From NCBI GenBank assembly GCA_016184225.1, contig JACPDA010000004.1:474763-538762 (forward strand): a stretch of 64,000 nucleotides of DNA. The letters run 5' to 3'. The position numbers and the translations under genes were made by a program. The notes below the pieces were generated by a model. That model did no database searches, was not told where the DNA came from, and saw only the letters and a program-made list of their open reading frames with translations. This document shows positions 55,156 through 64,000 of this stretch, one piece after another (positions within the stretch are counted from its first letter, which is position 1; each line of letters opens with the position of its first letter). The DNA is from Candidatus Daviesbacteria bacterium (GTDB lineage: Bacteria > Patescibacteriota > Microgenomatia > Daviesbacterales > UBA10151).

Positions 55156-56004
55156 ATGGATGAACAAATTTATGAGCTCGAGATAGATCTTCTAGAACCC
55201 AACCCTTTACAGCCAAGGGGGTTAATTGCGCCGGAATCCTTATCAGAACTCGCAGAATCAATAAGGTCTCATGGAGTTTTGGAACCTTTGGTTGTTGCAA
55301 AAACTCCCGCCGGCTATCAAATTATAGCCGGAGAACGAAGGTGGAGAGCTTCCAAATTAATTGGTTTGCCTAAAGTTCCGGTAATCATTAGAGAAACCAG
55401 CCCGCAAGGAATGCTGGAAATGGCTATAGTTGAAAATGTCCAAAGGATAGATTTAAATCCTCTGGAGAGGGCACAGGCGTATAGAAGGCTGATGGATGAA
55501 TTTGGTATGACTAACCAAGAGATCGCTGAACGTGTATCAAAAAGTCCGTCTTATATTTCCAATACAATCAGGCTCCTGATCTTGCCGGATGCGCTAAAAG
55601 ATGCTCTTATGTCCGCAGCTACAACAGAAGGCCATGCCCGAGCCTTAGCTGCATTGGAAGATCCCCATTTAATTATTACTTTATATAAAGAAGTTCTCAA
55701 AAGAAATCTTTCCGTTAGAGGTACAGAGGAGTTAGTTCGCAGGATGAGGGCAAATATGGGGATGGGTCCTAAAAAACAAGCAGATGTTCCCTCGATGCGC
55801 ATTGTTTCCGAAGATATTGATAAAATTCAGGCAGACATCGCTGACACTTTAGCGCAGAGGACAGATAAGGCACAAGTTAAGTGCCAGCTGACTGGTAAAA
55901 GAGCTAAGATGGAACTTATTATCAATGGCGATCCGAGTAAAACAACCTCAGTTTTAGAAGATTTGCACCAGGCAATTGTGGGTTATTTTAAACTTAAAGG
56001 GTAA
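55156..56004 (+). CDS. parB: ParB/Spo0J-family partition protein (no parA adjacent)
   Basis: N-terminal ParB box LQPRGLI...GERRWRA, then a central HTH (MTNQEIAERVSKSPSYISN). Confidence 0.8.
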   Translation: MDEQIYELEIDLLEPNPLQPRGLIAPESLSELAESIRSHGVLEPLVVAKTPAGYQIIAGERRWRASKLIGLPKVPVIIRETSPQGMLEMAIVENVQRIDLNPLERAQAYRRLMDEFGMTNQEIAERVSKSPSYISNTIRLLILPDALKDALMSAATTEGHARALAALEDPHLIITLYKEVLKRNLSVRGTEELVRRMRANMGMGPKKQADVPSMRIVSEDIDKIQADIADTLAQRTDKAQVKCQLTGKRAKMELIINGDPSKTTSVLEDLHQAIVGYFKLKG

Positions 56005-56005
56005 T

Positions 56006-56593
56006 TTACTTATCCAAAAGTAAACCCATGCTTTGTGGAGGGAAGTAGCGGAAAAGCGCCCTGCCGATAATTTCTTTTTTAGTGACCGGCCCCCATTCTC
56101 TTGAATCGGATGAATGTTCCCTATTATCCCCTATTACAAAATATTGATTATTTGCAACTTTAACAGGAGTTCCTTCTGTCAGGAAAGCACCTGCCGGAGT
56201 TAGAGTTCCCGGAGGTAAGTAACTTTCTTTCAAGGATTGGTTATTAAGGTACACGCTATTATTTGAAATTTCTATGGTATCTCCCGGTATAGCTATAATC
56301 CTTTTAATAAAATCCTGGGATTCATCCCGGGGGTTTTTCAATACTATAATTTCTCCTCTTTCAGGTTCTCTAAACCTGTAGCTTAATTTATCTGTAATAA
56401 GATAATCCCCGGTATGGAAGGTGGGAACCATTGAATTACCTTGGACTTTATGGAACTGGGCAACAAATAGGTAAATGGCGGCAAAGATTGCCCCGAATAC
56501 AACTACCGTTTCTATAAATTCAACAAGATATCCTCCTAAACGGCCGAAAAAACTTTTTTGAGGGCTGTCCGCATAATATGTATTTGAATCCAT
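56006..56593 (-). CDS. lepB: signal peptidase I
   Basis: S26 boxes: GNSMVPT (Ser), ...FIKRIIAIPGDTIE..., YFVIGDNREHSSDSREWG. Confidence 0.85.
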   Translation of the reverse strand: MDSNTYYADSPQKSFFGRLGGYLVEFIETVVVFGAIFAAIYLFVAQFHKVQGNSMVPTFHTGDYLITDKLSYRFREPERGEIIVLKNPRDESQDFIKRIIAIPGDTIEISNNSVYLNNQSLKESYLPPGTLTPAGAFLTEGTPVKVANNQYFVIGDNREHSSDSREWGPVTKKEIIGRALFRYFPPQSMGLLLDK

Positions 56594-56620
56594 ATTTTAA
56601 GATTATCTCAGAAACTTAGG

Positions 56621-56649
56621 TTGTGAAGCAAGAGTGGGAATGCTAAAAT
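56621..56649 (+). promoter_or_regulatory. promoter candidate for tRNA-Val (TTGTGA-N17-TAAAAT)
   Basis: Hexamers at 56621-56626 and 56644-56649, 14 nt upstream of the tRNA 5' end. Confidence 0.4.
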
Positions 56650-56663
56650 TACAAGGTTGGTGG

Positions 56664-56737
56664 GGATCCGTAGCTCAGTTGGTTAGAGCGCTTCGTTCAC
56701 ATCGAAGAGGTCAGAAGTTCGAGTCTTCTCGGGTCCA
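56664..56737 (+). tRNA. tRNA-Val (anticodon CAC)
   Basis: Manual fold. Acceptor GGATCCG/CGGGTCC (7 bp, one G-U). D-arm GCTC-AGTTGGTTA-GAGC. Anticodon arm CTTCG-TTCACAT-CGAAG with CAC at positions 34-36. T-arm AGAAG-TTCGAGT-CTTCT. Discriminator A; CCA not encoded. Confidence 0.85.
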
Positions 56738-56963
56738 CTTTTAGGGATTCTCCGGAATCCTGCGTAGGCCTGCTCTGCCCGCCTAGCCGCGAGGCTGGCA
56801 AAGCCCTGATTGTACTCCACAATTTTGAACTTTTCTTCGAAAAGTTCGTTTTTCTTTTTCTTGTAAGTTTCAGAATCTGTAACTTGGTCTAAGTAACCAT
56901 CCAAGCATATAAATCTGAACATTAATCTTAACTGAAATAAGTTGTGGTATAGTTCAGTAACAG

Positions 56964-57557
56964 ATGGCTATAGTTATTTCAGCAGATGAGATTAAAAAGG
57001 AATTGAAAGGTTACACTCCTAACCTTGCAGAAAAGTTTCATGCTGAATCTGCAAAAATGGCTGATCAAGAATTCGAAAAAGAAATTAAGAATACCTCGTA
57101 TAAAGAGATAATTTTAGTCTGCGGCGGATCGGCTTCTGGAAAAAGTGAGTTTTTAGCTACCCAACTAGCTGATAGGGAGAGCGTAATTTTCGATGGTACC
57201 TTATCCTCAACAAAAAGAGCAGAAAGAAAACTTAAAAAAATTATTAAAGAGAGTAAAACGCCGATAATTTACGCAGTAATACCGGATGATTTAAAAAGAG
57301 CTTTCATTGCATTCTTAAGGAGAGATAGAAAATTTAGAGATACTCATTTTTACAGAACACATTCCAGTTCAAGGAAAACATTGCTTTGGATCGCCTTAAA
57401 TTATCCGAAAGTGGAAATAAATATTGTAGAGAGTTCCTACACAAGTTCCAAAGGACTTCAATTTATCAGGATAAAGCTTGATAACAGGCAAAAGCTAATT
57501 GAGTATTTGATTGGTTTGCAAATGACAGAAGATGATATAATTAAGCAAACAATATAA
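56964..57557 (+). CDS. P-loop kinase of the zeta-toxin / chloramphenicol-phosphotransferase-like superfamily
   Basis: Walker A LVCGGSASGKS at residue ~50, then ESVIFDGTL (the Asp-after-P-loop arrangement of zeta/CPT kinases); 197 aa. Confidence 0.55.
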   Translation: MAIVISADEIKKELKGYTPNLAEKFHAESAKMADQEFEKEIKNTSYKEIILVCGGSASGKSEFLATQLADRESVIFDGTLSSTKRAERKLKKIIKESKTPIIYAVIPDDLKRAFIAFLRRDRKFRDTHFYRTHSSSRKTLLWIALNYPKVEINIVESSYTSSKGLQFIRIKLDNRQKLIEYLIGLQMTEDDIIKQTI

Positions 57558-57572
57558 ACATAAACCCCAATT

Positions 57573-57875
57573 ATGAAAAAAATATTCTATAAAACAAATC
57601 AGAATGATCCTCAGGTAAGAGCATATAAAGAAGCGGTTGAGAGAGGCAGACAAGATCACCATGTTGTATATAAGGATGATTCGTGGAGAGTAATTCGCGG
57701 TGATGCACAAAGACCACTAGAAACATTCAGCACACAAGAAGAAGCTATAAAACGAGCCAAATTAATTGCTAGAAGTCAAGGTACAGCAGTATATATACAT
57801 GGAGTTGATGGAAGAATTAGAGAAAGAGAAAGTTATGGAAATGATCCATTTCCTCCAAGAAACGTAACTCATTAA
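57573..57875 (+). CDS. DUF2188 domain protein
   Basis: HHVVYKDDSWRVIRGDAQRPLETFSTQEEAIKRAKLIARSQGTAVYIHGVDGRIRERESYGNDPFPP matches what I remember of the DUF2188 consensus. Confidence 0.6.
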   Translation: MKKIFYKTNQNDPQVRAYKEAVERGRQDHHVVYKDDSWRVIRGDAQRPLETFSTQEEAIKRAKLIARSQGTAVYIHGVDGRIRERESYGNDPFPPRNVTH

Positions 57876-57906
57876 GGTTTATTATTGTAAACCTGAAAGG
57901 AGAAAA

Positions 57907-57927
57907 CCGCGGACTTTCAGTCCGCGG
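57907..57927. terminator. bidirectional terminator hairpin between convergent genes
   Basis: CCGCGGACT-TTC-AGTCCGCGG perfect 9-bp GC-rich stem. On the minus strand it is followed by TTTTCTCCTTTC. A second hairpin GGTTTA-N6-TAAACC lies at 57876-57893. Confidence 0.5.
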
Positions 57928-58150
57928 AAGTCTATAAAAATCGCGCGCATTGTGCTTTCTGCCTTTTCAAAAAATAAAGACGTGGCCGAGGGCCAATAGA
58001 GCGAGGTTGTCCTGCCTGCCGGCAAGGCAGTGATTACAGGTTTAGGTAGAAAACAGATAGAGCTGGACGCGAGCGACGCCTACATCGATTGAAATTTCGT
58101 TCGGATTTGTCGATATAGGTCCACAGATTGGGATTTTGGATAGTTAAGGC

Positions 58151-58681
58151 TCAAAATTGTGGTAATTGCCTTTGGTGGGCAATCTGTTTCAGGGCTTTCT
58201 TTGTGTATGTGTTTAGTCCATAGACCCCGGAGAGTAGATTGATTGCTGAATCAACAAATGCTGGTAGCCAATTAACTCCGGTGCCGAGTCTCTCCTCCAG
58301 ATTTAAAGACTCTGCTCTCATCATCCTCACAACATCCAGTGAAGTAATTCTTGATCTCCTGGCTATACCGAAGGCTTTTTCTAATGATCCCTCTGCCTCC
58401 GCTTTATTCATTTGAGCTCCTGGAAATTCTACATTATGGCCAAATGTCTCGGCCAATACTACGGATTGGTCTTGTCTCCAACCTTCTGCAGCTTTATTGA
58501 AAGCTATCAACCCTGTTCTTTCCCACCACTGCCTGGTTGGAGCGGGTACTTTTACTTGTACTTGTTCTCCTGCAGGTTTTCTAGACCTCCTCGGCCGCAG
58601 AGTCTGTTTACCAGTGTCTAAGTTTGTCACCAGTTCCATACCCATACCTTCAAATGATCCCTGACCCTCTTTTCCTACCAT
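58151..58681 (-). CDS. hypothetical protein with anomalously high GC (~45%) relative to neighbours
   Basis: 176-aa ORF with no motif recognised. Composition is visibly G+C richer than the flanking ~30-35% GC genes. Confidence 0.5.
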   Translation of the reverse strand: MVGKEGQGSFEGMGMELVTNLDTGKQTLRPRRSRKPAGEQVQVKVPAPTRQWWERTGLIAFNKAAEGWRQDQSVVLAETFGHNVEFPGAQMNKAEAEGSLEKAFGIARRSRITSLDVVRMMRAESLNLEERLGTGVNWLPAFVDSAINLLSGVYGLNTYTKKALKQIAHQRQLPQF

Positions 58682-58762
58682 ATGCTAATTATACCTTATT
58701 TTATCTTCTCTGATCAAGAAACATTATTTAAATCATTTGCCACACCATATATTTAACATTAT

Positions 58763-58840
58763 CCCTAGGTTTGAAGCTATCCAACCCCTGGGGTTGGAAT
58801 TTGTTTTGGTGTCCTATCTAAGCCACCTCCCAGGTGGGAT
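58763..58840 (+). repeat. structured repeat element, copy B (as 39510-39546 plus an inserted CCAACCCC-T-GGGGTTGG hairpin)
   Basis: CCCTAGGT...[38-nt insert]...GGTGTCCTATCTAAGCCACCT-CCC-AGGTGG; lies in the 237-nt gap between two minus-strand genes. Confidence 0.5.
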
Positions 58841-58918
58841 TGGGGTTACGTAATTTATAAAATCTTTTGTTCTGTTTGGACTGTAGTATCTAGACATAAT
58901 TAATTTTCTTTATAAATA

Positions 58919-59392
58919 TTATCTTTTCTTCTTTTTAGATACCCTTTTCTTTGTCTTTGTAGTTTTTGAAGTAGGCTGTGGAGAAGTATCAGCTATAGGT
59001 GCTTGCGTACCTTCAATAAAAGCTTGATCAATATCATATTCTGTTATGCCTTTAAACCCATTCTTTTGACATAAGTTATAAATTAATCCAACAATTTTTC
59101 TTTTTATATTTGCCGGGGATTGATTTGGATCATTTATTTGTTCATATAAGTTACTAATCTGTTTGCGGGTTTCTTTATCTTTATGAAAAGTTATTGAAAC
59201 TTTATTAAGTGATCTCCTAAACTCAGATGAAGCATAATCTCCACGAAAAGTCATTAAATCTCTTATAGCTTCATTTTTAGTCCTTTTTTCAAAATCTCTT
59301 TTACCAACAAACCATATTACAAGTCCCGCGACTAACGGGCCAACTAATCCTTGTATTAAAATACCTATAAAATTATTATCCCAACCATTCAT
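58919..59392 (-). CDS. hypothetical membrane-anchored protein with a lysine-rich C-terminal tail
   Basis: One N-terminal TM helix (FIGILIQGLVGPLVAGLVIWFVG); C-terminus TKTKKRVSKKKKR. Its start overlaps the stop of the upstream GIY-YIG gene by 4 nt. Confidence 0.5.
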   Translation of the reverse strand: MNGWDNNFIGILIQGLVGPLVAGLVIWFVGKRDFEKRTKNEAIRDLMTFRGDYASSEFRRSLNKVSITFHKDKETRKQISNLYEQINDPNQSPANIKRKIVGLIYNLCQKNGFKGITEYDIDQAFIEGTQAPIADTSPQPTSKTTKTKKRVSKKKKR

Positions 59393-59754
59393 ATTAAATT
59401 TACAACGATCGGTTGGGCAGCGGGAGACCTTTCTCCTATTAATGGACTGTAACTATCAAACAAATAAGCTTCTATGCCATCTCTAGATTGTTTATCAACA
59501 ATAGCCCATGTTACCTTCAATTGACCGTATGTTCCATACCGAGTTATTTCTGGGTTATTTTTATGCTCCTGTAATCTTAATCCAATATGACCTTGTCCAA
59601 CCCTAATAACTTTTGCTCCGCCTGCACCTACATACCAAATTATATATACACCTTCTTTACTCAGGAAATAAGGGGCGTTCAGGTTTAATCGCAGGAGGTC
59701 AAACCATTGATTATTATTTGAATTCTTTACCCAATGTACATTAAGACTTTGCAT
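59389..59754 (-). CDS. small GIY-YIG nuclease-domain protein (YhbQ/COG2827-like)
   Basis: GVYIIWYVG...KVIRVGQGHIGLRLQEHKN and a later ...RDGIEAYLFDSYSPLIGE fit the GIY / YIG / Arg / Glu core. Confidence 0.55.
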   Translation of the reverse strand: MQSLNVHWVKNSNNNQWFDLLRLNLNAPYFLSKEGVYIIWYVGAGGAKVIRVGQGHIGLRLQEHKNNPEITRYGTYGQLKVTWAIVDKQSRDGIEAYLFDSYSPLIGERSPAAQPIVVNLI

Positions 59755-59934
59755 AACTCGTTAATCTATTATAACCGAAGTTTTAAACTTTGTATTTAGT
59801 TTTTTGTATAGCTTCCATTTTTATCCTCCACAATTTTAATTTCTTCCGGCATTAGGCCGTAGAGTTTATAAGCAGAGCTTCTCAGCTCGCTTACAGCTTG
59901 CTGATAAACTAATTGATATATCTTCTTTTATCCT

Positions 59935-62900
59935 TTAAATATTCTTAACTTGTGCATAAAATTTATTCTTCTGACAAAGACTTTTTACAAAATCTGCATT
60001 AGAAACTTTATCTTTAGGTACACCCACATTAAAGTAGAGGCAAAAGACTAAATCGTCTATAAGGTCTTTGATCTCCTTTTGTTTCTCAAAGTCAATTACA
60101 GGAAAGGATATCAGGTCCGATAGCATAATTGTTTTGTTTTCTAATTCGAGACCATCTTGGCCATACTTTGCCTCAATAACTTTCTTTACCAGAGTGAAAT
60201 CTTTCTTAATAGGCAGCTCTATTGACTCCATATCCTTTTCCAATATTAGTTTGTTTACTTCAACGCTAACTTTGTCAAACTTTTGAACCATTATTTTTGA
60301 AAAATCAACAAAGTCTGACAATAGAATTCTCTCTAACTTTAGGAGACCTCCAGTAAGCCTAATAGTTTCTTCCTTAATGTGTTGGTTTTGATCAGTTATT
60401 TTTGGGATTCTTACAAATTCCTTAATTGCTTTTATTGGAATTAAGAATTCTTTCTCTTGCTCATTTTGGAGGTTTTTTAGAATTAATTTGTTTATAGGAG
60501 AGTTCAATAAAGAAAGGAGATAAAAAATCTCTTCCCTATTATCTGAACAAATAATTGATGCCTTTCCCATATAAAAAATAATGTGATGATCAGTAAAATA
60601 AAATTTATCCGGATTTTTAACACTCCAGACAATTTTGTATTGTTGATCTAATGTAATATACCCTTGATTATTTTGGGTAAGTTTAATTTTATTTCTATCT
60701 TTTGGATAAAACGCTTTCGGTATAAAACTAGAATAATTATAAAAAGATTTGAAATCCAACAATTCGTAAGACTCTTCACTATTGTTAATTGTTGTTATAT
60801 ATTTAGGATTTAAGACAAATCCAATATCAAAATAGAATCTACTGTTAAAATTGTGTCTTGCTAAAACATGGTTATAATAGATAGAAATTTCTTCACTTTT
60901 TCTCTTGTATTCAATATGGAAATCTAAATATTCCTTATTCTGTTGAATGAAATTCCAATTTGCGAGGTTTTGAAGAAGTTGTGATTGTAAGATTTTATTT
61001 TTTGTTGTCTTTTCTTTCCGAGCTATTTTTCTGAAGGTTTCCTCAATATTTTCACCTGAACCTAAATGATTCCAAATCTCCACTTCCTGCAAATCTCTCG
61101 GCCTATTTTTCGAAACAATCAGAATCAAACTTGACGTAGCAATTGGCTTATTCTGTTTAAGTCCCCTTCCTAAGAACATCTTGCCGCTAAAGGTGATAAT
61201 TTTTTCAATAGTTGTAAACCGAGCAAGGTGATACCTAATTACATCCAAATCGCCCGATGTTAGTACGGTCTGAGGAATGATAAAACAAAGCTTTCCATTA
61301 TCTTTTAATAAAGCTAGTCCTAGAGCAATAAAAAATGCGTAAAAATTTGGTTTTGGTGAATACCTTTTCTGTCTTTCAGAAACACTATGTAGATTTAATC
61401 CATAAACATCACTTAATTTAACCTTACCTTGTTTCATTAGGCTGAAAATTAGAATACCCTGTTTTGAGCACTCGTTATAAGAAATGTATGGTGGGTTACC
61501 AATTACGTAGTCAAATCGTCTTCGTGATGGGCGCATACTTTGTTTCATATCCGCCAGGTCACTCTTTTCTCGCATATAACTTTCAAATTCAAAATCTAAC
61601 TTTCTACTATCAAACAAGACTTGTTGACCACCTATAACATCGATATCATTTATAGTATTTTTTAATCCAGCGTCTATAAACTCTGCAATCGAATCCTTGG
61701 TCCAAAAAACTTTTATTTTCTTATCAATTGGATTGTTGTATTTCTCGTTAATAATAAGCGGTAGCATTCGCATTAAAATATTCATCTCGGCCAAATAGAG
61801 TGGGAATTCTTCAATATCTAATCCAAAGACGTTATTATTTATCAATTCCTCAATTTTTCTTGAGGTATCTTCTGATCCGTTAGGTACCGCATTTAAAATT
61901 TGATCTGTTGCACTATATAAGAAAGTCCCACTGCCACAAGACGGATCTATTATGGAAATATAGTCTCCGTCGGGATCATGATCCAATCGTTTTATTAAAC
62001 TATCTGGTGTATATCCAACTTGTTCTAGCATAAAGTTAACGATAGCTGGATCTGTAAAATACTGTCCTTTCTTGGATTCTTCATATAATTCTTTTAGGTA
62101 ATTTTCATAAATATAGCCAAAGATTTCATTTCTAACGTTTGCAAAATTGTATTTTTTGATGAAGATGAAGATATCAAGCCATGGAGATACATCAGAAAGG
62201 CTATTTTCAACCCTATGGTAGAGTTCTTGAATTTTGTCTTTGATAAACGCCTGCTCTTTAGTAAATGGTCTATATATATTTTTCGAAATATTTGCAGAAA
62301 TTCCCTCAATAATCCCCAGAATATCTTTATATCTTTTTTGTTTCAAAAACTGATGAATCTTTTCAACGAAACTCTCAAATTCTGTTGCGAAATCGTCAAA
62401 CTCGTTATCGACCAATGTCTTATACAGGATAAACTGTATAATATAGGCATAAGTAAGCTCGATTGCTTTCTTTTCACTTAATTTATTGTCTGAACTTTCA
62501 AGATACCCTTCAATCTTGAGTTTATTTTTAAAGCCTTCGATAAGCTTAGTTATATCTTCAAAGAAAAGTTGCCTGTTGTTATCAACGTGCAGTTTGGTTT
62601 CTTTGAGAAGCGCTAACTGCCCCACCTTTTCAAAAAATGATAGGTAATAAAACTCCGGCTTGATATACTCCTTCCAAAAGGTGATAAACAACTGTGTTTT
62701 ATCGAGCATATCCCTAAGCGTGAAGATACGATATACATTGTTGTTATAAAAACGCCAAGTGAAACCATCGGTTAAAATACCGTAGTGTTTGTCGAAATCC
62801 TTTTGGTAGTTAAAGAGTTGTTTTTCACCAACTTGAATATTTTTATAGCACTCAACTTCAATAGGAATTGCTATTTCAGGATTGATATAGATATAAAAAT

Positions 62901-63117
62901 CTGCCCTACGTTTCTCTTTAGCATTCTTCTCATGTATAAATTCATTCCTTCTATCTTGATTATTTGTAGATAATTTGCCCTCTTTCAAGCTAAAAAGATC
63001 ATCAGATGACAATATATCTTTAACGAAACTTTGAACGCCGGTACCAACTTCTTGCTTTTGATAATAGTCTTTTTCTTGATTCCATTTCCTTTTTAGTCCT
63101 GATATTTTTAAACTCAT
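59935..63117 (-). CDS. type IIL/IIG restriction-modification fusion enzyme (MmeI-like): N-terminal PD-(D/E)xK nuclease + gamma-class N6-adenine methyltransferase + target-recognition domain
   Basis: N-terminal RADFYIYINPEIAIPIEVECYK (D...E.E..K) and YGILTDGFTWRFY; MTase motif I IIDPSCGSGTFL; motif IV DYVIGNPPYISYN; ~400-aa C-terminal region; 1060 aa. Confidence 0.75.
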   Translation of the reverse strand: MSLKISGLKRKWNQEKDYYQKQEVGTGVQSFVKDILSSDDLFSLKEGKLSTNNQDRRNEFIHEKNAKEKRRADFYIYINPEIAIPIEVECYKNIQVGEKQLFNYQKDFDKHYGILTDGFTWRFYNNNVYRIFTLRDMLDKTQLFITFWKEYIKPEFYYLSFFEKVGQLALLKETKLHVDNNRQLFFEDITKLIEGFKNKLKIEGYLESSDNKLSEKKAIELTYAYIIQFILYKTLVDNEFDDFATEFESFVEKIHQFLKQKRYKDILGIIEGISANISKNIYRPFTKEQAFIKDKIQELYHRVENSLSDVSPWLDIFIFIKKYNFANVRNEIFGYIYENYLKELYEESKKGQYFTDPAIVNFMLEQVGYTPDSLIKRLDHDPDGDYISIIDPSCGSGTFLYSATDQILNAVPNGSEDTSRKIEELINNNVFGLDIEEFPLYLAEMNILMRMLPLIINEKYNNPIDKKIKVFWTKDSIAEFIDAGLKNTINDIDVIGGQQVLFDSRKLDFEFESYMREKSDLADMKQSMRPSRRRFDYVIGNPPYISYNECSKQGILIFSLMKQGKVKLSDVYGLNLHSVSERQKRYSPKPNFYAFFIALGLALLKDNGKLCFIIPQTVLTSGDLDVIRYHLARFTTIEKIITFSGKMFLGRGLKQNKPIATSSLILIVSKNRPRDLQEVEIWNHLGSGENIEETFRKIARKEKTTKNKILQSQLLQNLANWNFIQQNKEYLDFHIEYKRKSEEISIYYNHVLARHNFNSRFYFDIGFVLNPKYITTINNSEESYELLDFKSFYNYSSFIPKAFYPKDRNKIKLTQNNQGYITLDQQYKIVWSVKNPDKFYFTDHHIIFYMGKASIICSDNREEIFYLLSLLNSPINKLILKNLQNEQEKEFLIPIKAIKEFVRIPKITDQNQHIKEETIRLTGGLLKLERILLSDFVDFSKIMVQKFDKVSVEVNKLILEKDMESIELPIKKDFTLVKKVIEAKYGQDGLELENKTIMLSDLISFPVIDFEKQKEIKDLIDDLVFCLYFNVGVPKDKVSNADFVKSLCQKNKFYAQVKNI

Positions 63118-63129
63118 ATTTTCTTGCCT

Positions 63130-63152
63130 AATTATTGCACAAAGGATGGTTA
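63130..63152 (-). promoter_or_regulatory. conserved promoter/leader cassette, copy 1 (upstream of the R-M gene)
   Basis: ATTATTGCACAAAGGATGGTTAG on +. On the minus strand it reads CTAACCATCCTTTGTGCAATAAT-TAGGCAAGAAAAT-ATG. Confidence 0.5.
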
Positions 63153-63354
63153 GGGTCTAGGGGATAGGGTATAGTTGTTATAAATACAATACATGTCAAG
63201 GGGGTTAAAATAGATCATCTTAAGGCTACTTATTCGGGTTATATTTGTATTCCAACTTAGAATGTGGTAGAATATTGTCACAAAGACCCTGTTTCCGAAT
63301 TGTCACCGTATGGTGCGCGTTCCAAACTAACGTTTGGATAGGGACAGGGTCGAA

Positions 63355-63943
63355 TCATTTAAAATCCCAAATATCTTCAATTCTTTTTACTTCCTCGAAT
63401 TTATGAAGATAATCTTTATTTTTACCTACAAAGGTTGCATGTATACTACCGGCTATTACATCTGCAAGCTGAATTAAAGTATTCTGCTTTGAATCGGCGA
63501 ATTTTAAATCGCTAAATATTTTGTTATAATTGGTTACGTAGAGATTTTTCTCCTCGCTTATCAAATTTTAACTTAGCCTTTTTGATAAACCCTTTACTCT
63601 GTTTAAGAACCTGCATAATGATATAGTTATAAAAATCTTCCTTATAATTTCGTAGTCTCGGACTATGAATGATCTCTTTCCTGACAACTATTGCTCGTAT
63701 GCGAAATTTAAAATTCCTAACTGTTTCAATAAATTGTTTCTTAAAATTTTTATCCATTTTGTTAAATTTGAATTCATAATAATCTGAAACTTTTAATTTT
63801 CTTCGTAGTTCCTTAATTGCAAGTGAAGTTTTCTCAGCTTCTAGCGGGTCATCAAATACCGCAAGCGCTATAACAAAGCACTTGCTTGAACCTTTTTCCA
63901 GTTTAAATCCAGGATCTCCGGAATCATCAATGAAAACTAGCAT
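63355..63943 (-). pseudogene. DUF3800 family gene interrupted by a frameshift (two overlapping ORFs 63524-63979 and 63355-63564)
   Basis: N-terminal MLVFIDDSGDPG... (the DUF3800 start) in one frame and C-terminal ...SKQNTLIQLADVIAGSIH (the DUF3800 QLAD motif) in another. The frames switch near the T5/A5 run at 63546-63550. Likely true start is the ATG at 63943. Confidence 0.55.
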
Positions 63944-63977
63944 TTTCTTGCTTAAGCGCGAAGCGCGAGCTTTGCTC

Positions 63978-64000
63978 ATTATTGCACAGAGGATGGTTAG
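63978..64000 (-). promoter_or_regulatory. conserved promoter/leader cassette, copy 2 (upstream of the DUF3800 gene)
   Basis: ATTATTGCACAGAGGATGGTTAG on +, with one mismatch to copy 1. The downstream leader TTAAGCAAGAAAATG is also shared, interrupted by a CGCGCTT x2 insert. Confidence 0.5.

What the first reader, a model, noticed from the sequence alone, without database searches (positions are those of the whole stretch)
63118..64000. Same ~35-nt promoter/leader cassette duplicated in front of two different defence genes
On the minus strand both the R-M gene and the DUF3800 gene are preceded by CTAACCATCCT[Y]TGTGCAATAAT ... TA[R]GCAAGAAAAT-ATG. In the DUF3800 copy a 22-nt GC-rich insert (tandem CGCGCTT x2) splits the cassette. 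The element contains a TGTG-extended -10-like AATAAT and is followed by a short A-rich leader. Shared portable promoters in front of unrelated genes suggest modular cassette shuffling within the island.
Basis: seen in the sequence. Interest (0 to 1): 0.55.

Follow-up and report, generated by a model that had tools for sequence, protein, structure and literature searches.

The report
Duplicated promoter brackets inserted DUF3800-RNA module
The same promoter-and-leader sequence really does sit in front of two different genes, but the two copies are best read as direct repeats bracketing a small inserted module (a DUF3800 gene plus a convergent small RNA), a pattern that recurs around this module in many other genomes and suggests that this long-unexplained gene-RNA pair is mobile.

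Summary
Past the window edge it runs ACTAT..CCCTAGACCCTAACCATCCTYTGTGCAATAAT (45/47 identical), followed by a 13-nt A-rich leader that ends at each start codon. Each copy reads as a sigma-70-type promoter: TAGACC, 17 nt, TGcAATAAT. The copies lie 847 nt apart and bracket a DUF3800 gene (here a pseudogene with a 35-nt deletion), a DUF3800-IX RNA (Rfam RF02968, 65 bits) transcribed convergently from its own promoter, and a short spacer. This is not a local oddity. Of 77 non-redundant DUF3800-IX modules from other genomes, 24 (31%) are bracketed by 16-130-nt direct repeats, against 7/125 control genes (p=1.7e-6) and 0/89 for the inverted-repeat control. The repeat sequence differs between lineages. 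In the clearest cases it is the start codon plus the first 8-16 codons of the downstream gene. The same element lineage also occurs in unrelated flanks with sharp ends. In the window's lineage the cassette travels with the module: it precedes RM, RadC-like, Fic and DUF3800 genes in sister loci, and is 93% identical where the flanking gene is 67.5%. The mechanism that makes the duplication is unknown, and I found no empty site.

The parts
63942..64000 (-). Cassette copy 1 (W1), in front of the DUF3800 pseudogene and cut by the window edge. About 22-27 more repeat bases lie beyond 64000. TG is at 63986-63985, the -10 AATAAT at 63983-63978, the GC-rich 23-nt segment at 63977-63955 and the leader TAAGCAAGAAAAT at 63954-63942.
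   Evidence: The continuation beyond the window is read from L001 6011-6096. Promoter-like call.
63118..63175 (-). Cassette copy 2 (W2), in front of the type IIG R-M gene. ACTAT + ACCCTATCCCC runs from 63175, the -35-like TAGACC is at 63159-63154, TG at 63139-63138, the -10 AATAAT at 63136-63131 and the leader TAGGCAAGAAAAT at 63130-63118.
   Evidence: W1 vs W2 is 45/47 identical.
63355..63943 (-). DUF3800 gene (PF12686), a pseudogene. A 35-nt internal deletion shifts the frame, giving ORFs of 139 aa and 69 aa. Intact relatives are 207 aa.
   Evidence: Pfam hits on both fragments, translations, 207-aa relatives up to 89% identical, deletion mapped in alignment A5.
63285..63355 (+). DUF3800-IX RNA gene (Rfam RF02968). 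It is convergent with DUF3800 and ends at the DUF3800 stop codon.
   Evidence: 65.4 bits against a gathering score of 36.8, full-length model match. The same arrangement is present in about 60 other loci.
63245..63284 (+). Promoter of the RNA gene: TTGTAT (63245-63250), a 17-nt spacer, TGgTAGAAT (-10 at 63268-63273), then CACAAA leading into the RNA.
   Evidence: Consensus over 55 loci on the RNA strand: TTGACA at -41/-40, TGnTATAAT at -18..-11, TACAAA at -6..-1.
63176..63244 (-). Right-hand spacer of the module. It is conserved in the closest relatives and contains an outward-facing TTGACA (63199-63194) and AACTAT next to copy 2.
   Evidence: Comparison of L001, L009, L010, L011 and L051 downstream regions. 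Element-end alignment in a second lineage also ends at GCTTGACA.
59935..63117 (-). Type IIG restriction-modification gene (Eco57I/MmeI-like, 1060 aa), transcribed from copy 2.
   Evidence: Pfam Eco57I 72.7 bits (cut-off 25.3). PADLOC REase_MTase_IIG / MTase hits. The identical protein is annotated in Candidatus Daviesbacteria.

Best explanation
The two cassette copies are the direct repeats that bracket an inserted module of about 850 bp. The module consists of a DUF3800 (RNase H-like) gene, a convergently transcribed DUF3800-IX small RNA with its own promoter, and a short right-hand spacer.

The repeated segment is a sigma-70-type promoter (weak -35 TAGACC, 17-nt spacer, extended -10 TGcAATAAT) plus a short A-rich leader that runs up to the start codon. 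One copy therefore drives DUF3800 and the other drives the R-M gene just downstream, so inserting the module did not cost the downstream gene its promoter.

Shown:
- the anatomy of the locus;
- the strong, specific enrichment of bracketing repeats around this module family;
- that the duplicated segment is usually the 5' region of the co-oriented downstream gene;
- that the module is a discrete, horizontally transferred unit.

Inferred:
- that the duplication arises during insertion or integration of the module, for example by gap-filling after staggered nicks, or by re-integration of an excised circle that carries one repeat copy;
- that both copies are active promoters.

In this lineage the promoter cassette now travels with the module.
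For: 1. The repeat is real and far beyond chance. It extends to 45/47 identity plus the leader, and both copies are called promoter-like.
2. Between the copies lie a DUF3800 gene and an RF02968 RNA.
3. Bracketing repeats generalise. The first test (300 nt upstream vs 700 nt downstream) gave scores of 32-134 in about 15 of 41 loci, against a cross-locus control maximum of 27. On 89 loci the best direct hit scored >=30 in 30, and the inverted control in 0. After removing redundancy the figures are 24/77 modules against 7/125 other ORFs from the same loci plus the window, Fisher p=1.7e-6, odds ratio 7.6.
4. Repeat sequences are unrelated between lineages and 16-130 nt long. In L096 the repeat is a perfect 24-nt ATG + 8 codons of the downstream Res/helicase gene. 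Its upstream copy is a stranded stub whose last A is the A of the DUF3800 ATG. In L032 it is the ATG plus about 16 codons of the downstream gene, which I read by eye as RecX-like. In L135 a 66-nt repeat of unrelated sequence ends 5 nt before the DUF3800 ATG and at the ATG of the next gene, even though its module is 89% identical to the window's.
5. In 16 of the 20 loci where DR2 is not too close to the contig end, a co-oriented ORF starts within about 120 nt of the downstream copy.
6. The module is a discrete unit. L052, L053 and L057 share it with sharp ends, about 27 nt before the ATG and at GCTTGACA about 75 nt beyond the RNA, in unrelated flanks.
7. Horizontal transfer: window vs L011 is 92.8% identical over the module and 92.9% over the cassette, but 67.5% nt / 64% aa over the flanking Polysacc_synt gene.
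Against: - I found no empty site and no circular junction. All 10 contexts of the L096 target protein carry the module, and the window population's contigs are identical.
- Duplication is not obligatory: L052, L053 and L057 have none, and about two thirds of modules show no detectable repeat.
- In the window's own lineage the repeat is the same cassette in three different gene contexts. In L011 it also brackets a Fic gene. That fits a cassette-centred process as well as a DUF3800-centred one.
- The L009 repeat has a third, module-free copy 2.4 kb away.
- No recombinase or transposase is nearby. No inverted repeat joins the module ends among the 25 longest pairs listed. The RNA shows no complementarity to the repeat.
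- Promoter activity rests only on consensus matching.
Confidence: 0.6

Rival explanations
1. Cassette-centred shuffling. The promoter cassette is itself the recombination or attachment unit of a hotspot. Each imported gene (DUF3800+RNA, R-M, Fic, RadC-like) is joined to a cassette copy. Genes are gained, lost and exchanged by homologous or site-specific recombination between cassette copies. DUF3800 is one passenger among several.
For: - The cassette precedes four kinds of gene in three sister loci, and in L011 the Fic gene is bracketed by cassette copies A and B.
- The full-length cassette abuts the non-homologous chromosomal flank next to Polysacc_synt in both the window and L011.
- The 5' part of the cassette is a run of CCCTA motifs, which could be protein-binding sites (sequence reading).
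- The L009 repeat also exists without a module.
Against: - Bracketing repeats are strongly enriched around DUF3800 modules specifically, 31% against 5.6%.
- Their sequences are unrelated between lineages. In L096 and L032 they are coding 5' ends of the neighbouring gene, not a shared cassette.
- L135 has an 89%-identical module and an entirely different repeat.
- No integrase or recombinase is present in the window island or in L001/L011.
- No further cassette copies occur in 64 kb or in about 650 kb of related loci.
Confidence: 0.25
2. Promoter capture after insertion. A promoter-less or weakly expressed DUF3800 gene later acquired a copy of its neighbour's promoter, or the reverse, through a small dispersed duplication or gene conversion that selection retained. 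The duplication is unconnected with how the module moves.
For: - Both copies end at a start codon, as selection for expression would predict.
- In several loci the DUF3800 -10 box lies inside the repeat.
- The R-M orthologue in L005 shares only the leader, AAGGGAAGAAAATATG. The promoter part in front of the window's R-M gene is therefore not ancestral to that gene.
Against: - A precise, non-tandem duplication about 850 nt away would have to recur independently in about a third of the loci, each time with a different sequence.
- In L096 and L032 the repeat is part of the downstream coding sequence. A gene cut by the insertion could not be repaired afterwards by a later duplication.
- L017 and L009 repeats contain no gene start.
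Confidence: 0.1
3. Chance resemblance, or assembly artefact, between two upstream regions.
For: None beyond the low complexity of the A-rich leader. The 13-mer with 2 mismatches is at chance level.
Against: - The 23-mer has 0 expected matches, and the extended repeat is 45/47 identical.
- The identical arrangement occurs in four independently assembled contigs from different sequencing runs.
Confidence: 0.01

Closest known systems
DUF3800-associated RNA motifs (Weinberg et al. 2017, PMC5737381; Rfam RF02968 DUF3800-IX)
   Same: The module between the two cassette copies is a textbook member: a PF12686 gene with an RF02968 RNA directly after its stop codon, on the opposite strand.
   Different: The paper offers no functional hypothesis and does not mention flanking repeats or mobility. 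I found no such report in 18 papers that mention DUF3800 or in one that mentions PF12686. The promoter of the RNA and the bracketing repeats are described here from sequence.
Integrative genomic islands and prophages flanked by att direct repeats that rebuild the end of the target gene
   Same: Direct repeats of tens of nucleotides bracket a horizontally acquired unit. One copy keeps the neighbouring gene intact: the ATG plus first codons in L096 and L032, and the promoter plus leader in the window.
   Different: There is no tyrosine or serine recombinase in or near the module. The unit is only about 0.8 kb. The rebuilt end is the 5' end of a protein gene rather than a tRNA 3' end. Repeat sequence changes between elements that are 89% identical.
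Insertion sequences with target-site duplications and outward-facing promoter elements
   Same: It is a compact unit with sharp ends found in unrelated flanks. An outward-facing TTGACA lies near the right end. Flanking duplications are often present.
   Different: Duplications are long and variable (16-130 nt, sometimes none), not short and fixed. No inverted repeat joins the module ends among the pairs listed. There is no recognised transposase, since DUF3800 is only described as RNase H-like (PMC10910872, PMC7736814).
Repeat duplication by Cas1-type integrases (CRISPR spacer acquisition, casposons)
   Same: As far as I recall, this is the only well-characterised prokaryotic insertion chemistry that duplicates tens of nucleotides of target on both sides of the inserted DNA. 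This rests on my own knowledge.
   Different: No Cas1 is present. Here the duplication length is not fixed by a ruler, and the duplicated sequence is arbitrary.
Integron gene cassettes
   Same: Unrelated genes at one hotspot are each separated by a version of the same short element, as in L011 and the window.
   Different: The shared element lies 5' of each ORF and contains the promoter. It is not a 3' attC palindrome. No integron integrase is nearby. The GC-rich part has no significant or conserved fold.

Membership tests
Sigma-70-type promoter, extended -10 class | -10 hexamer close to TATAAT with A at position 2 and T at position 6, preceded by TG one base upstream | tested here: met
   TGcAATAAT in both copies. 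The scanner calls both sites at 9/12 matches with TG.
Sigma-70-type promoter, extended -10 class | -35 hexamer 16-18 nt upstream | tested here: inconclusive
   TAGACC (4/6 to TTGACA) at 17 nt. The region yields 5 promoter-like sites against 4.2 expected in shuffles, so the match alone is weak evidence.
Sigma-70-type promoter, extended -10 class | Mapped transcription start downstream of the -10 | not testable with these tools
   Needs 5' RACE or dRNA-seq. No transcriptome data were available.
DUF3800-IX RNA (Rfam RF02968) | Covariance-model score at or above the gathering threshold over the full model | tested here: met
   65.4 bits against 36.8, model positions 1-67 of 67, window 63285-63355 on the + strand.
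DUF3800-IX RNA (Rfam RF02968) | Adjacent to a DUF3800 gene | tested here: met
   The RNA ends at the stop codon of the PF12686 gene. The same is seen in about 60 loci.
DUF3800 protein family (PF12686) | Pfam score above the curated cut-off | tested here: met
   N-terminal fragment 28.5 bits and C-terminal fragment 28.0 bits, against a cut-off of 21.
DUF3800 protein family (PF12686) | Intact full-length ORF (207 aa in this subfamily) | tested here: not met
   A 35-nt deletion causes a frameshift, leaving 139-aa and 69-aa ORFs.
Classical insertion sequence / DDE transposon | Recognisable transposase gene | tested here: not met
   The only ORF is DUF3800. Neither it nor its neighbours gives a Pfam transposase hit.
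Classical insertion sequence / DDE transposon | Terminal inverted repeats | tested here: not met
   No inverted repeat links the module ends among the 25 longest inverted pairs listed for window 56000-64000. None is visible at the sharp ends in L052, L053 and L057.
Classical insertion sequence / DDE transposon | Short target-site duplication of fixed length | tested here: not met
   Flanking repeats range from none to about 130 nt.
Classical insertion sequence / DDE transposon | Same element in unrelated genomic contexts | tested here: met
   L052, L053 and L057. The window, L008, L010, L011 and L135 sit in five different contexts at 89-93% nt identity.
Integrase-mediated integrative element (att repeats) | Tyrosine or serine recombinase encoded in the element | tested here: not met
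   None in the module or the surrounding island.
Integrase-mediated integrative element (att repeats) | Direct repeats at both junctions, one of which rebuilds the target gene | tested here: met
   Window, L096, L032, L135.
Integrase-mediated integrative element (att repeats) | Empty site with a single repeat copy in related genomes, or an excised circle | tested here: inconclusive
   I searched and found none. All ten contexts of the L096 target are occupied, and the window population is uniform. Sampling was limited.
Integron gene cassette | attC recombination site 3' of the ORF and an integron integrase with attI nearby | tested here: not met
   The shared element is 5' of the ORFs. The 3' structured element is RF02968, which has its own promoter. 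No integrase is present. attC core motifs were not searched formally.
RNA-guided recombinase (IS110 bridge-RNA type) | Element RNA carries a segment matching the target or flanking repeat | tested here: not met
   The longest match between each RNA and its own repeat averages 6.4 nt (same strand) and 6.0 nt (complement), against 6.0 and 5.9 nt for mismatched pairs across 25 loci.
Type IIG restriction-modification enzyme (Eco57I/MmeI-like) | Eco57I-type methylase domain in a single polypeptide of about 1000 aa | tested here: met
   PF07669 at 72.7 bits (cut-off 25.3) in a 1060-aa ORF. PADLOC REase_MTase_IIG at 4.3e-18. Nuclease activity was not tested.

The most novel reading that the evidence does not exclude
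DUF3800 together with its convergent DUF3800-IX RNA is an autonomous mobile element of about 0.8 kb and of a new kind. It would consist of an RNase H-fold protein plus a structured RNA, with no classical transposase or integrase. It would insert at the 5' ends of genes and duplicate a long, variable stretch (16-130 nt) of promoter, leader or first codons. The element thereby takes over the target's expression signals while leaving the target gene intact. This would give the first functional handle on the eleven orphan DUF3800 RNA classes.
Probability: 0.3. Interest if true: 0.85.

Novelty: new variant of a known kind. Interest (0 to 1): 0.62.

Why it matters
DUF3800 genes and their eleven unrelated associated RNA motifs have been an open puzzle since 2017. 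The discoverers wrote that no specific hypothesis for their function was obvious to them (PMC5737381). The evidence here gives that puzzle a concrete, testable form. The DUF3800-IX gene-RNA pair behaves as a discrete, horizontally transferred unit, and it is very often bracketed by long direct repeats made from the 5' end of the neighbouring gene.

- If the module moves by itself, the chemistry would be unusual, because it produces long, variable target duplications without a known recombinase.
- If it is moved by something else, the repeats mark a cassette-exchange process in the tiny genomes of CPR bacteria, whose mobile-element biology is poorly known as far as I am aware.
- For annotation, identical promoters in front of neighbouring defence genes can be insertion scars rather than regulatory design.

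Tried and rejected
1. Exact search for the cassette (22 specified bases) in genome contigs and metagenome contigs found 0 hits. A variant-tolerant pattern found 0 hits in viral contigs. The strict pattern would have missed the L010 and L011 variants, so this only excludes near-identical copies.
2. Empty-site search. The L096 target protein P0241 was traced to 24 contigs, and all 10 distinct contexts carry the module. The window-population contigs L001-L004 are identical. The R-M relatives are at most 69% identical and sit in other contexts.
3. Idea that the duplicated block extends upstream of copy 1 into a remnant of a module right end. The similarity is not significant (score 24 against shuffles 17.7 +/- 2.9, maximum 28). 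Rejected.
4. Idea that the RNA guides insertion by pairing with the repeat, as a bridge RNA would. There is no excess match. Rejected at this resolution.
5. Idea that the GC-rich segment is a conserved leader hairpin. Folding z-scores are -0.84 to +1.3 and there is no common structure in four homologous copies. Rejected.
6. Cassette copies upstream of the other island genes in the window: none seen.
7. Modules on phage genomes: no relative found in viral contigs.
8. Literature on DUF3800, PF12686, or the drum and skipping-rope RNAs: nothing on mobility or flanking repeats. The supplementary text of the 2017 paper is not held.
Full report
OBSERVATION

On the minus strand the 23-mer CTAACCATCCTYTGTGCAATAAT occurs exactly twice in the 64-kb window, at 64000..63978 and 63153..63131, with none expected by chance. 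Each copy is followed by TARGCAAGAAAAT running into a start codon: 63943 for DUF3800 and 63117 for the 1060-aa R-M gene. Copy 1 carries an extra 23-nt GC-rich segment.

The window edge cuts copy 1. An independently assembled 12-kb contig, L001, carries the identical locus and shows that the repeat continues upstream in both copies as ACTAT..ACCCTATCCCCTAGACC. Copy 1 vs copy 2 is 45/47 identical. A consensus scan calls the same promoter-like site in both copies: TAGACC, 17 nt, AATAAT, with TG one base upstream.

WHAT LIES BETWEEN THE COPIES

The copies are 847 nt apart. Between them are three things.

- **A DUF3800 gene (PF12686), here broken.** Relatives are uniformly 207 aa, up to 89% identical. 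The window copy has a 35-nt internal deletion that shifts the frame.
- **A DUF3800-IX RNA.** This is a full-length Rfam RF02968 match at 63285-63355 on the opposite strand, 65.4 bits against a gathering score of 36.8, ending at the DUF3800 stop codon.
- **A spacer.**

In 55 loci the sequence upstream of the RNA, read on the RNA's strand, gives a clear consensus promoter: TTGACA at -41/-40, TGnTATAAT at -18..-11, and TACAAA just before the RNA. The RNA is therefore an independently transcribed gene convergent with DUF3800, and that promoter marks the minimal right edge of the module. The organism is Candidatus Daviesbacteria, a CPR/Patescibacteria lineage.

THE BRACKETING REPEAT IS GENERAL

I fetched 40 loci from species-representative genomes and 74 from metagenomes that encode the 207-aa DUF3800 family. 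Wherever I searched with Rfam, the RF02968 RNA lies 0-10 nt (up to about 45 nt in a few distant loci) after the stop codon, on the opposite strand.

I then compared the 300 nt upstream of each DUF3800 start with the 700 nt downstream of its stop.

- In the first test, direct-repeat scores reached 32-134 in about 15 of 41 loci. Cross-locus controls averaged 20.2 with a maximum of 27. One reverse-complement control reached 32, in L036, which is not counted as repeat-positive.
- On 89 loci, the best direct hit scored >=30 in 30 loci, and the best inverted hit never reached 30 (maximum 29).
- After removing duplicate loci and two artefacts, 24 of 77 modules are bracketed. Only 7 of 125 other ORFs of 120-420 aa from the same loci and the window are bracketed (Fisher p = 1.7e-6, odds ratio 7.6).

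The repeats are 16-130 nt long and their sequences are unrelated between lineages.

WHAT THE REPEATS ARE MADE OF

In 16 of the 20 loci where DR2 is not too close to the contig end, a co-oriented ORF begins within about 120 nt of the downstream copy. Four cases are especially informative.

- **L096.** A perfect 24-nt repeat, ATGCAACTCAAAACATATCAAAAA, is the start codon plus the first eight codons of the downstream Res/helicase-type gene (MQLKTYQK|NTLRIV..). The upstream copy is a stranded stub whose last A is the A of the DUF3800 ATG. The inserted DNA runs from that ATG to the -35 of the RNA promoter.
- **L032.** The repeat is the ATG plus about 16 codons of the downstream gene, which I read by eye as RecX-like.
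- **L135.** The module is 89% identical to the window's. A 66-nt repeat of entirely different sequence ends 5 nt before the DUF3800 ATG and at the ATG of a different gene.
- **L022, L027, L028 and L055.** The repeat ends in a -10-like box 4-6 nt before the DUF3800 ATG.

A gene cut by an insertion cannot be repaired afterwards by a separate duplication. In L096 and L032, at least, the duplication must therefore have arisen together with the insertion.

THE MODULE IS A DISCRETE, TRANSFERRED UNIT

L052, L053 and L057 carry the same element lineage in unrelated flanks. Similarity starts sharply about 27 nt before the ATG, at the extended -10 TTTTGGTAGAAT. It ends sharply at GCTTGACA, about 75 nt beyond the RNA. 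These three have no flanking repeat.

The window's closest relatives sit in five different gene contexts. L011 is the same chromosomal locus as the window, with an orthologous Polysacc_synt gene diverging from it that is 64% identical in protein. Yet the module is 92.8% and the cassette 92.9% identical in DNA, against 67.5% for the flanking gene. Module and cassette are therefore much younger than the genomes and reached the same hotspot in both.

THE WINDOW'S OWN LINEAGE

Versions of the same cassette occur as follows.

| Locus | Cassette copy | Gene that follows |
|---|---|---|
| L010 | upstream (29/29 with the downstream copy) | DUF3800 |
| L010 | downstream | RadC-like gene |
| L011 | A (full length) | Fic gene |
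| L011 | B | DUF3800 |
| L011 | C | a short ORF after the module |
| L008 | single copy seen | DUF3800 |

All eight copies share TTTGTGC-WWTAAT...AAAATG. The upstream CCCTAGACCCTAAC part is present in four copies. The GC-rich segment is also present in four, so it is ancestral and the window's R-M copy lacks it.

The R-M orthologue in L005 (69% identical) shares only the leader, AAGGGAAGAAAATATGAGTTT, and not the promoter part. The promoter in front of the window's R-M gene is therefore not ancestral to that gene.

A second lineage behaves similarly. The L009 repeat has a third, module-free copy 2.4 kb away, and it recurs upstream of a related module in another gene context, L137. So in some lineages the bracketing sequence travels with the module or pre-exists as a dispersed site.

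MECHANISM

The following points are shown: the anatomy, the enrichment, the make-up of the repeats, the sharp element ends and the horizontal transfer. Two points are inferred: that the duplication is produced during insertion or integration, and that each copy works as a promoter.

The facts to reconcile are these:
- the repeat length is variable;
- the duplication is sometimes absent;
- in four of the five closest relatives the repeat ends at or within 5 nt of the DUF3800 ATG and at (or within a few nt of) the ATG of the next ORF;
- the repeat occasionally includes element sequence, in L094 (262 nt at 79% identity) and in L135;
- no recombinase or transposase is nearby;
- no inverted repeat joins the module ends among the 25 longest pairs listed;
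- the RNA does not match the repeat.

These facts fit three candidate processes: gap-filling after staggered nicks, Campbell-type re-integration of an excised circle that carries one repeat copy, or template switching. They do not fit a classical IS, an integron, or an integrase-borne island. I could not discriminate further, and I found no empty site or circle junction.

COMPARISON WITH WHAT IS KNOWN

The gene-RNA pair itself is known. DUF3800 RNA motifs were described with no functional hypothesis (PMC5737381). DUF3800 is described as an RNase H-like fold and as a partner of type VII retrons (PMC10910872, PMC7736814). It also matches a PADLOC candidate-defence family, PDC-M04A, at 1e-14. I found no report of flanking repeats or mobility.

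The closest analogies are integrative islands whose att repeats rebuild a gene end, IS elements with outward-facing promoter elements, and the repeat duplication made by Cas1-type integrases. Each fails on at least one defining feature tested here; the Cas1 comparison was not tested and rests on my own knowledge.

VERDICT

The more informative reading is that it forms the direct-repeat bracket of an inserted DUF3800-RNA module, and that this bracket is a general, previously undescribed property of that module family.

Confidence in the bracket reading is about 0.6. The probability that the module is itself a new kind of mobile element is about 0.3. Interest is 0.62.

Noticed in passing
window 63285-63355 (+), promoter 63245-63284: The DUF3800-IX RNA (RF02968) is convergent with DUF3800 and has its own conserved sigma-70-type promoter. 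The consensus over 55 loci is TTGACA, 17 nt, TGnTATAAT, then TACAAA. This supports Rfam's strand assignment and means the RNA runs antisense towards the 3' end of the DUF3800 mRNA.
   Followed up: yes
window 63355-63943 (-): The DUF3800 gene is a pseudogene (35-nt deletion causing a frameshift) in the window and in the independent contigs that cover it (L001, L002, L004). The RNA gene and both promoter copies remain intact.
   Followed up: yes
window 56664-56738 (+) and 56739-64000: tRNA-Val is followed by a lower-GC stretch (32-38% against 38-45% elsewhere) that runs to the window end. It holds the R-M gene, a DUF6680 gene, a weak Zeta-toxin-like P-loop ORF and several ORFs without family. 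It looks like a genomic island next to a tRNA, but no integrase was found.
   Followed up: partly
L005 about 1040-1150: Upstream of the 69%-identical R-M orthologue there are three direct copies of GTTGGACCTGTCC(C/A)GC, spaced about 50-70 nt apart. They superficially resemble the GACCCTGTCCC stem sequence of the DUF3800-IX region. Their nature is unknown.
   Followed up: no
L094 and L095, 2834-3095 and 3772-4033: A 262-nt direct repeat (79% identical) spans a methylase 3' end plus the first 95 nt of DUF3800 on both sides of a single module. The second DUF3800 copy is truncated (147 aa), and only one RNA is present. This suggests integration into an already occupied site.
   Followed up: partly
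L037 669-1328: A control ORF of 219 aa, unrelated to DUF3800, is flanked by a 136-nt direct repeat (score 187). It may be another small bracketed insertion in the same genome.
   Followed up: no
L048 1907-1971 and 1980-2044: The Sulfobacillus harzensis locus has two tandem RF02968 matches after its DUF3800 gene. It is the only cultured organism in the set.
   Followed up: no
L096 and L125-L134: The type III Res gene downstream of the module is split (129 aa plus 567 or 657 aa) in all ten contexts. The operon reads Mod - DUF6864 - 148-aa ORF - [DUF3800 module] - Res.
   Followed up: partly
L009 8263-8279: A third, module-free copy of the ~42-nt sequence that brackets the L009 module lies at the 3' end of a BipA-type GTPase gene. 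The bracketing sequence there is a short dispersed repeat.
   Followed up: partly
L012, L016, L017, L019, L020 and other genome contigs records: Several contigs carrying this CPR-type module are titled 'uncultured Gammaproteobacteria bacterium'. That looks like a taxonomic mislabel of binned MAGs.
   Followed up: no
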